From: Escherichia coli
GTDB lineage: Bacteria > Pseudomonadota > Gammaproteobacteria > Enterobacterales > Enterobacteriaceae
NCBI RefSeq assembly: GCF_003334305.1
Contig: NZ_QOWS01000011.1
Length of the DNA: 64,000 nucleotides
Reading direction: 5' to 3' (one strand)
Part shown: positions 5,002-26,943 of the stretch, one piece after another
Position numbering within the stretch: the stretch's first letter is position 1
How the letters are laid out: every line of letters starts with the position of its first letter
Notes under the pieces: model-generated
Database searches by the model: none
Told to the model about the DNA's origin: nothing
What the model saw: only the letters and a program-made list of their open reading frames with translations
Translations under genes and position numbers: made by a program

Positions 5002-6387
5002 CTAGCGAATTGAAAAGCCGCTGGTTAACACGCAGCGTCGTGAGCGGGCAAAAGTCCGTGCTGACGTTGTCCCTTCTCCGGTCGGTGTTGCAATGGTAAA
5101 GGTCGTAAAGCCTTCGCCGCCGACGCCAATACCCGCCCAGGAGGGGCCGTTTTTGACAAAGATTGAGGTTTGCATAACGCGTGCGGCAAGGTTGAGCCGT
5201 GAGACGTTCTGCGAGTGCATAATTGCCGTGTGGTGCAAGCCGTCTTCCACTTTCAGTGCCAGGGTGAGAGCGCTATCAAAATCGTTGACCTTCACAATGG
5301 GCAGCATTGGCATCAGTTGTTCACAAGTAACCCAACTATCATTGGCGTCGACAACAGCAATCAGTAGGCGCGGCGCTTTTGCGGGCAAAGGGAGGCCTGC
5401 CGCTTCCAGCAAGGCTGATGGGCTTTTCCCAACCAGTTTTTTGTTGGCGCTACCGTCTGGCAGGCAAATTGCACGCAATTTCTCAGTTTGCTCATAGTTA
5501 AGAAGAAGTGCGCCAAAACTTTGCATCTGCTGAATTAAATAATCTGCCACTGATGCCACGACAATCAGGCTTTTTTCAGCAATACACGGCAGGTTGTAAT
5601 CAAATGAAGCGCCGTTGATGATGTCCTCGGCGGCTTTCACAATATCCGCCGTTTCATCGACGATGCACGGAGGGTTACCCGCTCCGGCACCAATCACTTT
5701 CTTGCCACTTTTCATTCCCATGGCGACGATCCCCGGACCGCCGGTAATCGCCAGAACGCTGATTTTAGGGTGCGCCATCATCTGTTCGGTGGCAGCAAAG
5801 GTCGGTTCAGATACGGTAACGATCAGGTTATGAATGCCACTACAGCGAAACGCGATGTCTTCGATTGTGGTAATCAGTTTTAACGAAACGTTTTTGGCAC
5901 CCGGGTGTGGACTGAAGTAGACGCTATTACCTGCTGCCAGCATGCTGATGCTGTTGTTAATGATGGTTTCCGTGGGGTTGGTGCTTGGCGTGACCGAGCC
6001 AATCACCCCAAACGGAGAGTACTCAAACAAAACCATGCCACCATCACCGGTTAGTGCTGTGGTGGTTAAATCTTCAATTCCTGGCGTGTTATCAAGTGCC
6101 GCTTTGTTTTTTAGGTACTTATCTTCTTTATTTCCCATCCCCGTTTCTTTGGCGCTTTCTTCTGCCAGTTCGGTAAGGCGGGGCATTAATTCTTCGCGAA
6201 TGGCGCTGATAATGGCGCTACGGGTTTTAAGCGGACACTGTTGAAAGCGTAAAAAGGCCTGGTGTGCTGCGCAGACCGCTTCATCAACAGTCTGGAAAAT
6301 AGCGTTTCTTTGCGTTCGTGGTGTAGCGGGGACAAGTTGCTCGCGCAGAATATTGCGGATCAGTGTTTCTAATTCAGAGTTATTCAT
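5002..6387 (-). CDS. pduP: PduP, CoA-acylating propionaldehyde dehydrogenase
   Basis: 461 aa; starts MNNSELETLIRNIL, close to recalled Salmonella PduP; aldehyde-dehydrogenase fold motifs (GAGNPPCIVDETAD). Confidence 0.85.
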   Translation of the reverse strand: MNNSELETLIRNILREQLVPATPRTQRNAIFQTVDEAVCAAHQAFLRFQQCPLKTRSAIISAIREELMPRLTELAEESAKETGMGNKEDKYLKNKAALDNTPGIEDLTTTALTGDGGMVLFEYSPFGVIGSVTPSTNPTETIINNSISMLAAGNSVYFSPHPGAKNVSLKLITTIEDIAFRCSGIHNLIVTVSEPTFAATEQMMAHPKISVLAITGGPGIVAMGMKSGKKVIGAGAGNPPCIVDETADIVKAAEDIINGASFDYNLPCIAEKSLIVVASVADYLIQQMQSFGALLLNYEQTEKLRAICLPDGSANKKLVGKSPSALLEAAGLPLPAKAPRLLIAVVDANDSWVTCEQLMPMLPIVKVNDFDSALTLALKVEDGLHHTAIMHSQNVSRLNLAARVMQTSIFVKNGPSWAGIGVGGEGFTTFTIATPTGEGTTSARTFARSRRCVLTSGFSIR

Positions 6388-21643: not shown

Positions 21644-22579
21644 ATGATGCGTCGTGTAAATATTTTTTGCTCATTTGCTCTACTTTTTGCCAGCCATACT
21701 AGCCTGGCGGTAACTTATCCATTACCTCCAGAGGGTAGCCGTTTAGTGGGGCAGTCGTTTACTGTAACTGTTCCTGATCACAATACCCAGCCGCTGGAGA
21801 CTTTTGCCGCACAATACGGGCAAGGGTTAAGTAACATGCTGGAAGCGAACCCGGGCGCTGATGTTTTTTTGCCGAAGTCTGGCTCGCAACTCACCATTCC
21901 GCAGCAACTGATTTTGCCCGCCACTGTTCGTAAAGGGATTGTGGTTAACGTCGCTGAGATGCGTCTTTATTACTACCCACCAGACAGTAATACTGTGGAA
22001 GTCTTTCCTATTGGTATCGGCCAGGCTGGGCGAGAAACCCCGCGTAACTGGGTGACTACCGTTGAACGTAAACAAGAAGCTCCAACCTGGACGCCAACGC
22101 CGAACACTCGGCGCGAATATGCGAAACGAGGGGAGAGTTTGCCCGCATTTGTTCCTGCGGGCCCCGATAATCCCATGGGGCTGTACGCGATTTATATTGG
22201 CAGGTTGTATGCCATCCATGGTACCAATGCCAATTTTGGTATTGGGCTCCGGGTAAGTCAGGGCTGTATTCGTCTGCGCAATGACGATATCAAATATCTG
22301 TTTGATAATGTTCCTGTTGGGACGCGTGTGCAAATTATCGACCAGCCAGTAAAATACACCACTGAACCAGATGGCTCGAACTGGCTGGAAGTTCATGAGC
22401 CGTTGTCGCGCAATCGTGCAGAATATGAGTCTGACCGAAAAGTGCCATTGCCGGTAACCCCATCTTTGCGGGCGTTTATCAGCGGGCAAGAAGTTGATGT
22501 AAATCGCGCAAATGCTGCGTTGCAACGTCGATCGGGAATGCCTGTGCAAATTAGTTCTGGTTCAAGACAGATGTTTTAA
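21644..22579 (+). CDS. ldtA: L,D-transpeptidase LdtA (ErfK)
   Basis: 311 aa; signal peptide then YkuD-type catalytic region with HGT...SQGCIRL; matches recalled E. coli ErfK. Confidence 0.85.
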
Positions 22580-22600
22580 GAGCGTTGGTAATTAGAAAGC

Positions 22601-22629
22601 AAAAAGCCTGCTAGAAAGCAGGCTTTTTT
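22601..22629. terminator. hairpin terminator after ldtA, next to asnV
   Basis: aaaaagcctgc tagaa agcaggctttttt: GC stem flanked by A-run and T-run. Confidence 0.6.
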
Positions 22630-22634
22630 GAATT

Positions 22635-22710
22635 TGGCTCCTCTGACTGGACTCGAACCAGTGACATACGGATTAACAGTCCGCCGTTCTACCGACTGAA
22701 CTACAGAGGA
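22635..22710 (-). tRNA. asnV: tRNA-Asn (GUU)
   Basis: 76-nt reverse complement of TCCTCTGTAGTTCAGTCGGTAGAACGGCGGACTGTTAATCCGTATGTCACTGGTTCGAGTCCAGTCAGAGGAGCCA; anticodon loop CTGTTAA. Confidence 0.95.
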
Positions 22711-22965
22711 ATCGTGTGAACGGGGCGCATATTAATGGCAGTGCATGGTGATGTCAAAGGGTGAAATGCATTTTTTTGTTTGTTTGCTGTCAATTTCAAC
22801 AAAGTGGTGAGCTTTCAATCTTATTGGGTAATGAATCATCGTGGTGCATACCCTCCTTTTATAGGGCAGGGGAACGCGACAGCTGATTAAAGGAGCAAAT
22901 GACGAATCTATCATAATCTCTTATTTGACAGTTGGTTAGCTTGTACATCAACGCCAAAATAAAAC

Positions 22966-22981
22966 TGGCAAGCATCTTGCA
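22966..22981 (+). promoter_or_regulatory. sigma-54 (-24/-12) promoter upstream of nac
   Basis: TGGCAAGCATCTTGCA matches TGGCAC-N5-TTGCA spacing exactly, 56 bp upstream of the nac ATG. Confidence 0.65.
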
Positions 22982-23036
22982 GTCTGGTTGTAAGTAATGG
23001 CGGCACTTGGGCCGATTCTTAAAAACCGGAGGCAAC

Positions 23037-23954
23037 ATGAACTTCAGACGCCTGAAATACTTCGTAAAAATTGTAGATATTGGTAGCCTGACCCAGGCTG
23101 CTGAAGTATTGCATATTGCACAACCAGCGCTCAGCCAGCAGGTTGCCACACTGGAAGGTGAGTTAAATCAACAACTTTTGATTCGCACAAAACGGGGCGT
23201 TACGCCAACAGACGCCGGAAAAATTCTCTATACCCATGCGCGGGCCATTTTACGTCAGTGTGAGCAGGCCCAACTGGCGGTGCATAACGTTGGTCAGGCA
23301 TTATCGGGGCAAGTCTCGATTGGCTTTGCGCCAGGAACCGCTGCGTCATCCATCACCATGCCCTTATTACAGGCGGTTCGCGCTGAATTCCCGGAGATCG
23401 TTATCTATCTTCATGAAAATAGCGGTGCAGTGCTTAACGAAAAACTGATAAATCACCAACTCGATATGGCGGTGATTTATGAGCATTCCCCTGTGGCTGG
23501 GGTATCCAGTCAGGCTTTGCTGAAAGAAGATCTTTTCCTGGTAGGAACTCAAGATTGTCCGGGGCAAAGCGTTGATGTGAATGCTATTGCGCAAATGAAC
23601 CTCTTTCTCCCCAGTGATTACAGTGCTATTAGACTTCGTGTTGATGAGGCTTTTTCCCTACGGCGACTCACGGCAAAAGTTATTGGTGAAATTGAGTCTA
23701 TTGCCACGCTAACCGCAGCGATTGCCAGCGGCATGGGCGTTGCAGTATTACCCGAATCGGCCGCGCGTTCGTTATGTGGCGCAGTAAATGGGTGGATGTC
23801 ACGCATTACCACTCCTTCCATGAGTCTCTCTTTGTCATTAAATTTACCCGCCAGAGCGAACTTATCGCCACAGGCACAGGCAGTGAAAGAGTTGTTAATG
23901 TCAGTGATTAGTTCTCCAGTGATGGAAAAAAGGCAGTGGCAATTGGTGAGCTAA
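23037..23954 (+). CDS. nac: Nac, nitrogen assimilation control LysR-family regulator
   Basis: 305 aa from ATG 23037; MNFRRLKYFVKIVDIGSLTQAAEVLHIAQPALSQQV matches recalled Nac N-terminus. Confidence 0.9.
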   Translation: MNFRRLKYFVKIVDIGSLTQAAEVLHIAQPALSQQVATLEGELNQQLLIRTKRGVTPTDAGKILYTHARAILRQCEQAQLAVHNVGQALSGQVSIGFAPGTAASSITMPLLQAVRAEFPEIVIYLHENSGAVLNEKLINHQLDMAVIYEHSPVAGVSSQALLKEDLFLVGTQDCPGQSVDVNAIAQMNLFLPSDYSAIRLRVDEAFSLRRLTAKVIGEIESIATLTAAIASGMGVAVLPESAARSLCGAVNGWMSRITTPSMSLSLSLNLPARANLSPQAQAVKELLMSVISSPVMEKRQWQLVS

Positions 23955-25043: not shown

Positions 25044-25119
25044 TGGCTCCTCTGACTGGACTCGAACCAGTGACATACGGATTAACAGTCCGCCGTTCTA
25101 CCGACTGAACTACAGAGGA
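25044..25119 (-). tRNA. asnU: tRNA-Asn (GUU)
   Basis: Sequence identical to the tRNA at 22635-22710. Confidence 0.95.
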
Positions 25120-26867: not shown

Positions 26868-26943
26868 TCCTCTGTAGTTCAGTCGGTAGAACGGCGGACT
26901 GTTAATCCGTATGTCACTGGTTCGAGTCCAGTCAGAGGAGCCA
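26868..26943 (+). tRNA. asnW: tRNA-Asn (GUU)
   Basis: TCCTCTGTAGTTCAGTCGGTAGAACGGCGGACTGTTAATCCGTATGTCACTGGTTCGAGTCCAGTCAGAGGAGCCA, identical to the other two copies. Confidence 0.95.

What the first reader, a model, noticed from the sequence alone, without database searches (positions are those of the whole stretch)
22966..22981. Exact-spacing sigma-54 promoter upstream of nac
TGGCAAGCATCTTGCA has the GG and GC elements at consensus spacing, consistent with the known RpoN/NtrC dependence of nac.
Basis: partly seen in the sequence, partly recalled or inferred. Interest (0 to 1): 0.25.

Follow-up and report, generated by a model that had tools for sequence, protein, structure and literature searches.

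The report
Known sigma-54 promoter of E. coli nac

Summary
The 16-mer TGGCAAGCATCTTGCA is exactly at window 22966-22981 (+), 56 nt upstream of the ATG (23037) of a gene that is unambiguously nac. The window is E. coli chromosome (cobT-ldtA-tRNA-Asn-nac-cbl). GG and GC are separated by the canonical 10 nt. On its own the motif is not statistically remarkable, but its context settles the matter. The same 17-mer is the published sigma-54 ChIP-seq site for nac in K-12, flagged as experimentally confirmed in EcoCyc. NtrC ChIP-seq and RpoN/NtrC genomic SELEX both give peaks in this spacer. In 80 orthologous nac loci from about 20 enterobacterial genera, TGGCA and TTGCA are invariant at a fixed position while the spacer and flanks drift. 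An NtrC palindrome (22832-22848) is centred at about -152 from the inferred start (22992), with a second NtrC-like half-palindrome 20 bp downstream. Both are conserved across genera. A conserved Nac-consensus-like site (22910-22924, centre -75) lies between enhancer and promoter, matching the autorepression architecture described for Klebsiella. Verdict: observation confirmed, interpretation supported, already known, low interest.

The parts
22966..22981 (+). Sigma-54 (RpoN) -24/-12 promoter element TGGCAAGCATCTTGCA of nac (GG 22967-68 = -25/-24; GC 22979-80 = -13/-12)
   Evidence: Sequence. Identical to the published sigma-54 ChIP-seq motif for nac. TGGCA and TTGCA invariant in 81/81 orthologous loci with a variable spacer. 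Identical in K-12.
22992..22992 (+). Inferred transcription start (A), 45 nt upstream of the nac ATG
   Evidence: Inferred from the -24/-12 geometry. It equals the 'Distance 45' given for nac in Table 1 of PMC4591121. Not mapped here.
22832..22848 (.). Main NtrC (NRI) enhancer site TGAATCATCGTGGTGCA, centre about -152
   Evidence: The only <=2-mismatch match to TGCACC-N5-GGTGCA in 64 kb. An NtrC-like palindrome is found in 81/81 orthologous loci, centred at -150..-153 in 72, -140/-141 in 2 and -130/-131 in 7. K-12 has C at 22836, one mismatch fewer.
22852..22868 (.). Second, degenerate NtrC-like site (CCTCCTTTTATAGGGCA; other genera ATACCCCTTATGGGGCA), centre about -132; candidate low-affinity NtrC site
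   Evidence: Conserved block in alignment A1. Found 19-20 bp downstream of the main site in 72/81 loci. Assignment to NtrC is an inference from half-site similarity and rigid coupling to the main site.
22910..22924 (.). Nac-consensus-like site ATCATAATCTCTTAT (ATA-N9-TAT type), centre -75, between enhancer and promoter; candidate negative-autoregulation site
   Evidence: Conserved block in A1. AT.-N9-TAT at -74..-76 in 59/81 loci. Invariant among 4 divergent E. coli alleles. The Nac ChIP-exo motif is ATAagnaaaanttAT (PMC9853098). Nac bound between activator sites and the core promoter is reported for the K. aerogenes nac promoter (PMC4740811 citing Feng et al. 1995).
23028..23032 (+). Shine-Dalgarno GGAGG of nac
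   Evidence: Sequence. The GG(A/G)GGCAA block is conserved in A1 and A3.
23037..23954 (+). nac coding sequence (305 aa LysR-type regulator)
   Evidence: ORF. NCBIfam NF008410 NAC equivalog, 600 bits. RefSeq annotation.

Best explanation
Window 22966-22981 is the -24/-12 recognition element of the sigma-54-dependent promoter of the E. coli nac gene. RNA polymerase carrying sigma-54 binds it as a closed complex. GG at -25/-24 and GC at -13/-12 lie on one face of the helix, and the start is inferred at about 22992. Under nitrogen limitation, phosphorylated NtrC oligomerises on the upstream enhancer: a main palindrome at 22832-22848 (centre about -152) plus an adjacent weaker site at 22852-22868 (centre about -132). 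It contacts the polymerase by DNA looping and uses ATP hydrolysis to open the promoter. Nac protein then probably binds the ATA-N9-TAT-like site at 22910-22924 (centre -75), between enhancer and promoter, and damps its own synthesis. What is inferred: the exact start site, the NtrC assignment of the second site, and Nac autorepression in E. coli (by analogy with Klebsiella and from site conservation).
For: Motif and coordinates. Gene identity and synteny (ldtA, tRNA-Asn, nac, cbl). The identical 17-mer is the sigma-54 ChIP-seq motif for nac, FAT 24, EcoCyc 'C', and the promoter is described as previously characterised and used as a positive control: (PMC4591121). NtrC ChIP-seq peak at nac-cbl, 59.6-fold: (PMC4066584). 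gSELEX peaks for RpoN holoenzyme (52%), NtrC (50%) and both together (86%) in the nac/asnV spacer: (PMC8743547). Phylogenetic footprint: TGGCA and TTGCA invariant in 81/81 loci (80 distinct upstream sequences, about 20 genera), 46-59 nt from the ATG, while spacer positions and flanks vary. NtrC palindrome in 81/81 loci at -150..-153, or displaced by about 11 or 21-22 bp (one or two helical turns). Second site rigidly 19-20 bp from the first. Nac-like site at -74..-76 in 59/81. No sigma-70-like promoter on the + strand of 22500-23100. All blocks are invariant among four E. coli alleles whose spacer is only about 89% identical.
Against: The 16-mer alone is not statistically distinguishable from chance in 64 kb. 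No transcription start was mapped here, and the primary papers (Muse & Bender 1998; Feng et al. 1995; Atkinson et al. 2002) are not in the held library, so details of footprinting and primer extension rest on secondary citations and general knowledge. The window's allele has an extra mismatch in the left half of the main NtrC site compared with K-12. The second NtrC-like site is degenerate in Escherichia.
Confidence: 0.97

Rival explanations
1. [quoted passage not shown]
For: Consensus matches with <=1 mismatch occur at about the chance rate in this window: 6 observed against 3.8 expected.
Against: The core is invariant in 81/81 orthologous loci at a fixed distance from the ATG while neighbouring bases drift. 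Published sigma-54 ChIP-seq occupancy falls on exactly this motif. No sigma-70-type promoter was detected on the + strand upstream of nac. The NtrC enhancer co-occurs at the expected distance.
Confidence: 0.01
2. The element acts as a small hairpin or palindrome: GCAAGATGCTTGC followed by a T-rich run on the minus strand, flagged as terminator-like. It would serve as a minus-strand terminator or a binding site for a dimeric regulator, not as a sigma-54 promoter.
For: The terminator scan flags 22980-22968 (-): 5-bp stem, 3-nt loop, tail CAGTTTTATT.
Against: The stem follows simply from TGGCAAG/CTTGCA being partly self-complementary. In Enterobacter, Lelliottia and Huaxiibacter the element is TGGCATTCATATTGCA, which keeps the sigma-54 blocks but leaves only 3 pairable bases, so sequence is conserved and structure is not. 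The only gene oriented towards it on the minus strand side is nac itself, which is on the + strand, so there is nothing to terminate.
Confidence: 0.01
3. A genuine sigma-54 binding site that is non-productive (a poised or roadblock site), like many of the intragenic sigma-54 sites reported in E. coli.
For: Sigma-54 holoenzyme binds many sites without transcribing (PMC4591121).
Against: The site is intergenic, oriented towards nac, and sits 45 nt from the ATG with an NtrC enhancer upstream. nac RNA rises under nitrogen limitation and is used as the positive control for sigma-54/NtrC activation. NtrC is reported to strongly activate nac.
Confidence: 0.01

Closest known systems
E. coli K-12 nac promoter (nacp; Muse & Bender 1998; EcoCyc-confirmed sigma-54 promoter; site OS19 in Bonocora et al. 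2015)
   Same: The 17-mer CTGGCAAGCATCTTGCA is identical, with the same distance to the nac ATG and the same neighbours (asnV, cbl). The 335-bp intergenic alignment differs at only 3 positions.
   Different: The window's allele has T instead of C at 22836 (left half of the main NtrC site, one more mismatch to consensus), G instead of A at 22953, and G instead of A at 22982, immediately 3' of TTGCA. No functional consequence was tested.
Klebsiella aerogenes/pneumoniae nac promoter (Feng, Goss, Bender & Ninfa 1995: sigma-54 promoter, NtrC enhancer with one strong and one weak site, Nac site between them)
   Same: The K. pneumoniae ATCC 13883 locus (L080) has TGGCAAGCAAATTGCA 72 nt from the ATG, an NtrC palindrome centred at -152, the adjacent ACCCCTAATGGGGCA block, and ATCACTATCCCTTAT at the same relative position as in E. 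coli. The architecture of a repressor bound between activator and core promoter is cited in PMC4740811.
   Different: The spacer bases of the -24/-12 element differ (GCAAA versus GCATC). The E. coli second site is more degenerate. The strong-plus-weak description of the Klebsiella enhancer is from my own knowledge of the 1995 papers, which I could not read here.
glnAp2 and glnK promoters of E. coli (the other classic NtrC/sigma-54 promoters)
   Same: The same mechanism class: a GG-N10-GC element, NtrC palindromes more than 100 bp upstream, and activation by looping. glnK is listed in the same ChIP-seq table.
   Different: The nac enhancer lies further upstream (about -152/-132) and its sites are weaker matches to consensus. 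nac also carries an autoregulatory Nac site in the loop. The literature places nac and glnK among promoters needing higher NtrC levels than glnAp2 (PMC3870243).

Membership tests
Sigma-54 (RpoN) -24/-12 promoters | GG and GC dinucleotides separated by exactly 10 nt within a TGGCAC-N5-TTGCW-like element | tested here: met
   TGGCAAGCATCTTGCA, 1 mismatch at the non-critical 6th base.
Sigma-54 (RpoN) -24/-12 promoters | Intergenic location, oriented towards a gene and at a short distance from it | tested here: met
   56 nt from the motif's 3' end to the nac ATG on the same strand. The distance is 46-59 nt in 81 orthologous loci.
Sigma-54 (RpoN) -24/-12 promoters | Selective conservation of the -24 and -12 blocks among orthologous promoters | tested here: met
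   TGGCA and TTGCA are invariant in 81/81 loci, while positions 5, 6, 7 and 10 of the element and both flanks vary.
Sigma-54 (RpoN) -24/-12 promoters | Upstream binding sites for a bacterial enhancer-binding protein | tested here: met
   NtrC-consensus palindrome at 22832-22848, the only <=2-mismatch hit in 64 kb, conserved in 81/81 loci.
Sigma-54 (RpoN) -24/-12 promoters | Occupancy by sigma-54 holoenzyme in vivo or in vitro | not testable with these tools
   From the literature, for the identical K-12 sequence: ChIP-seq FAT 24 (PMC4591121) and a gSELEX RpoN peak (PMC8743547).
Sigma-54 (RpoN) -24/-12 promoters | rpoN- and activator-dependent transcription starting about 12 nt downstream of the GC | not testable with these tools
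   Secondary literature only: EcoCyc 'confirmed' status and reference to Muse & Bender 1998, and NtrC activation of nac. The primary paper is not held.
NtrC (NRI) enhancer sites | 17-bp palindrome TGCACC-N5-GGTGCA, usually in pairs on the same helical face | tested here: met
   The main site has 2 mismatches (1 in K-12). A second half-palindrome lies 20 bp downstream, and the spacing is fixed at 19-20 bp in 72/81 loci. NtrC binding to the second site is inferred.
Nac operator (ATA-N9-TAT) | 15-bp ATA-N9-TAT-type site | tested here: inconclusive
   ATC-N9-TAT at 22910-22924, conserved at -74..-76 in 59/81 loci. It has one departure from the strict consensus. An exact ATA-N9-TAT at 22848-22862 is not conserved outside Escherichia. 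Binding was not tested.

The most novel reading that the evidence does not exclude
The promoter itself is known. The most novel reading left open is that the nac control region carries undescribed fine-tuning features visible only in the comparative data. First, there is a short 5'-UTR stem-loop (window 23001-23004 / 23011-23014) with compensatory changes across genera, which might affect nac mRNA stability or translation. Second, helical-phase-preserving deletions of about 11 and 21-22 bp in Pseudocitrobacter and Kluyvera bring the NtrC enhancer closer and, in Kluyvera, remove the Nac autoregulation site. Third, an allele-specific weakening of the main NtrC site in this strain (T at 22836) could shift the nitrogen-starvation threshold for nac induction.
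Probability: 0.15. Interest if true: 0.2.

Novelty: already known. Interest (0 to 1): 0.04.

Why it matters
It matters only as a sanity check. The first-stage reader correctly recognised a textbook regulatory element from raw sequence, and the comparative analysis here gives a clean example of how a statistically unremarkable 16-mer becomes unambiguous through context, enhancer co-occurrence and phylogenetic footprinting. Nac is the adaptor that extends the NtrC/sigma-54 nitrogen-starvation response to sigma-70 promoters, so the promoter is biologically important, but nothing here changes current understanding.

Tried and rejected
(1) I tried to read the primary papers: Muse & Bender 1998 (PMC107004), Bender 2010 (PMC2944532), Feng et al. 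1995 (PMC177361) and Atkinson et al. 2002 (PMC135341). None is held, so the experimental start site and footprints could not be quoted directly.

(2) An exact ATA-N9-TAT at 22848-22862 was considered as the Nac site. I rejected it in favour of 22910-22924 because it overlaps the NtrC sites and is not conserved outside Escherichia. Genome-wide, this pattern occurs at the chance rate (7 against 7.7 expected).

(3) The far-upstream conserved palindrome TTGCTGTCAATTTCAACAA (22784-22802) was considered as a third nac enhancer element. I rejected this because the other two tRNA-Asn genes in the window share the same upstream layout (TGTTGA...CAGCAAAC, then TTTGACA -35 and TAATAT -10), so it belongs to the divergent asnV promoter.

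(4) IHF site between enhancer and promoter: there is no match to WATCAA-N4-TTR with <=1 mismatch between 22499 and 23166.

(5) Rfam scan of 22400-23200: only the tRNA reaches threshold.

(6) Leader RNA structure: RNAalifold predicts nothing, and the window's leader folds no better than shuffles (z = -0.06). A hand-specified 5-bp stem shows some covariation, but the stem was derived from these same sequences, so it is only a lead.

(7) The minus-strand terminator-like hairpin within the motif was rejected because it is not conserved as a structure.

Full report
**Observation.** The sequence TGGCAAGCATCTTGCA is present exactly at window 22966-22981 on the + strand. GG (22967-68) and GC (22979-80) are separated by 10 nt, the canonical sigma-54 geometry. 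The element differs from TGGCAC-N5-TTGCW only at its sixth base. As a bare pattern it is not rare. With <=1 mismatch there are 6 matches in the 64-kb window against 3.8 expected, and with <=2 mismatches 53 against 46. The stricter core TGGCA-N6-TTGCA occurs twice against 0.42 expected. The statistical case therefore has to come from context.

**Context.** The window is E. coli chromosome. A 1381-nt query covering the region matches 5415 of 5426 complete E. coli genomes, at up to 99.9% identity, and lies over 'nac' and 'tRNA-Asn'. Gene order is cobS-cobT-ldtA, tRNA-Asn (minus strand, 22635-22710), nac, cbl, tRNA-Asn, yeeO. The ORF starting at ATG 23037 (CDS 23037-23954) scores 600 bits against the NCBIfam NAC equivalog, cutoff 309. 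The motif's 3' end is 56 nt upstream of that ATG on the same strand. A simple sigma-70 scan finds no +-strand promoter upstream of nac. It finds only the minus-strand tRNA-Asn promoter (TTGACA-17-TAATAT, 22757-22729).

**Published evidence for this exact sequence.**
- Bonocora et al. 2015 (PMC4591121) list sigma-54 ChIP-seq site OS19 with motif CTGGCAAGCATCTTGCA, minus strand in K-12, gene nac (b1988), FAT 24, distance 45, PSSM 11.67, EcoCyc status 'C'. [quoted passage not shown]
- The K-12 intergenic region differs from the window at only three positions, none inside the 16-mer.
- The 'distance 45' corresponds to window 22992. That is the start I infer independently by placing GG at -25/-24 and GC at -13/-12.
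- Brown et al. 2014 (PMC4066584) report an NtrC ChIP-seq peak at nac-cbl with 59.6-fold enrichment.
- Shimada et al. 2021 (PMC8743547) report genomic-SELEX peaks in the nac/asnV spacer for RpoN holoenzyme (52%), NtrC (50%) and both together (86%).
- Park et al. 2023 (PMC9853098) and others describe nac as strongly NtrC-activated.

**Phylogenetic footprint.** A scan of one genome per species returned 80 nac loci from about 20 enterobacterial genera, 79-99% identical at the protein level. Every one of them, and the window, has TGGCA-N6-TTGCA 62-75 nt upstream of the ATG. Over these 81 sequences (80 distinct upstream regions), TGGCA, TTGCA and two A's at -3/-4 of the element are invariant. Positions 5, 6, 7 and 10 of the element and both flanks vary freely, giving 15 different 16-mers. 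Four divergent E. coli alleles show the same pattern in a spacer that is only about 89% identical overall. This is the signature of selection on the sigma-54 contacts. It also disposes of the alternative that the element acts as a hairpin. The terminator-like stem flagged on the minus strand is lost in the Enterobacter/Lelliottia form TGGCATTCATATTGCA.

- The only match with <=2 mismatches to the NtrC consensus TGCACC-N5-GGTGCA in the whole window is TGAATCATCGTGGTGCA at 22832-22848, centred at -152 from the inferred start. K-12 has C at 22836, one mismatch fewer.
- An NtrC-like palindrome is present in all 81 loci. It is centred at -150 to -153 in 72 of them, at -140/-141 in the two Pseudocitrobacter loci, and at -130/-131 in seven Kluyvera-type loci. 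The shifts are about one or two helical turns.
- Immediately downstream there is a second conserved block. Most genera have ATACCCCTTATGGGGCA and the window has CCTCCTTTTATAGGGCA (22852-22868). It sits 19-20 bp from the first site in 72 of 81 loci.
- I interpret this second block as the weak second NtrC site. That fits my recollection that the Klebsiella nac enhancer has one strong and one weak site, but I could not read that paper here.
- No IHF-consensus site lies in the loop.

**Autoregulatory site.** Between enhancer and promoter, alignment A1 shows a conserved AT(C/T)-N9-TAT block: window ATCATAATCTCTTAT, 22910-22924, centre -75. It is found at -74 to -76 in 59 of 81 loci and resembles the Nac ChIP-exo motif ATAagnaaaanttAT. 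Brunwasser-Meirom et al. 2016 (PMC4740811) cite Feng et al. [quoted passage not shown] Nac autorepression in E. coli at this site is therefore a well-supported inference, not something tested here.

**Mechanism.** Sigma-54 holoenzyme sits on 22966-22981 as a closed complex. NtrC-P assembled on 22832-22868 loops over about 150 bp and drives open-complex formation. Transcription starts near 22992, leaving a leader of about 45 nt with a GGAGG Shine-Dalgarno sequence at 23028-23032. Nac feeds back through 22910-22924.

**Things that belong elsewhere or led nowhere.** The far-upstream conserved palindrome (22784-22802) shares its layout with the upstream regions of the two other tRNA-Asn genes in the window. 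It therefore belongs to the divergent asnV promoter. Rfam finds only the tRNA. RNAalifold finds no leader structure. A hand-drawn 5-bp stem shows modest covariation and is reported only as a lead.

**Verdict.** The element is the known, experimentally confirmed sigma-54/NtrC-dependent nac promoter of E. coli. Novelty: already known. Interest: very low.

Noticed in passing
window 22729-22802 (minus strand): This is the divergent tRNA-Asn (asnV) promoter: -35 TTGACA at 22757-22752, -10 TAATAT at 22734-22729, an A/T-rich tract, and a conserved upstream palindrome TTGCTGTCAATTTCAACAA (22784-22802). The palindrome is centred about 71 nt upstream of the likely tRNA start. It is conserved across about 20 genera and partly shared (TGTTGA...CAGCAAAC) with the other two tRNA-Asn promoters in the window. 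Its position and sequence suggest a FIS/UP-type upstream activating region. It lies only about 30 bp from the nac NtrC enhancer.
   Followed up: partly
window 23001-23004 / 23011-23014 (nac 5' UTR): There is a short inverted repeat in the nac leader (CGGC...GCCG; GCCAG...CTGGC in most genera). A hand-specified 5-bp stem is paired in 73% of cells against 26-43% for slid controls, with double changes at all 5 pairs (4 of 500 shuffles reach the covariation score). However, RNAalifold predicts nothing, and the window's leader folds no better than shuffled sequence.
   Followed up: partly
L040, L048-L050, L059, L061, L065 (Kluyvera-type loci) and L054, L057 (Pseudocitrobacter), about 60-100 nt upstream of the sigma-54 element: Deletions of about 21-22 bp (Kluyvera) and about 11 bp (Pseudocitrobacter) move the NtrC enhancer from -152 to -130 or -141, preserving the helical phase. 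In Kluyvera the deletion removes the TAT half of the Nac-like site, which suggests loss of Nac autorepression there. The C. freundii-group loci also lack the AT.-N9-TAT match.
   Followed up: partly
window 22836, 22953, 22982: These are the three differences from K-12 MG1655 in the nac-asnV spacer. T for C at 22836 adds a mismatch to the left half of the main NtrC site. G for A at 22982 is the base immediately 3' of TTGCA, which is A in 76 of 81 orthologous loci. The promoter region as a whole is unusually polymorphic within E. coli (90-100% identity across 5416 genomes).
   Followed up: partly
window 5458-5473 (+): This is the only other exact match to the invariant core: TGGCAGGCAAATTGCA. 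It lies antisense inside a 461-aa CoA-acylating aldehyde dehydrogenase gene (5005-6387, minus strand; NCBIfam PRK15398, 718 bits; PduP/EutE-like). That gene suggests this strain carries a pdu-type operon next to the cob genes, which K-12 lacks as far as I know. The match is probably chance, or one of the many intragenic sigma-54 sites. Not examined further.
   Followed up: no
window 22635-22710, 25044-25119, 26868-26943: Three tRNA-Asn(GUU) genes lie within 4.3 kb and bracket nac-cbl and yeeO. In the closest RefSeq genome, yeeO is annotated as a pseudogene with an internal stop.
   Followed up: no
loci L003-L082: No Salmonella locus was among the best 80 of the 431 nac relatives recovered from the species-representative genome collection. 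This fits the statement in PMC1865078 that no Nac had been found in S. typhimurium.
   Followed up: no
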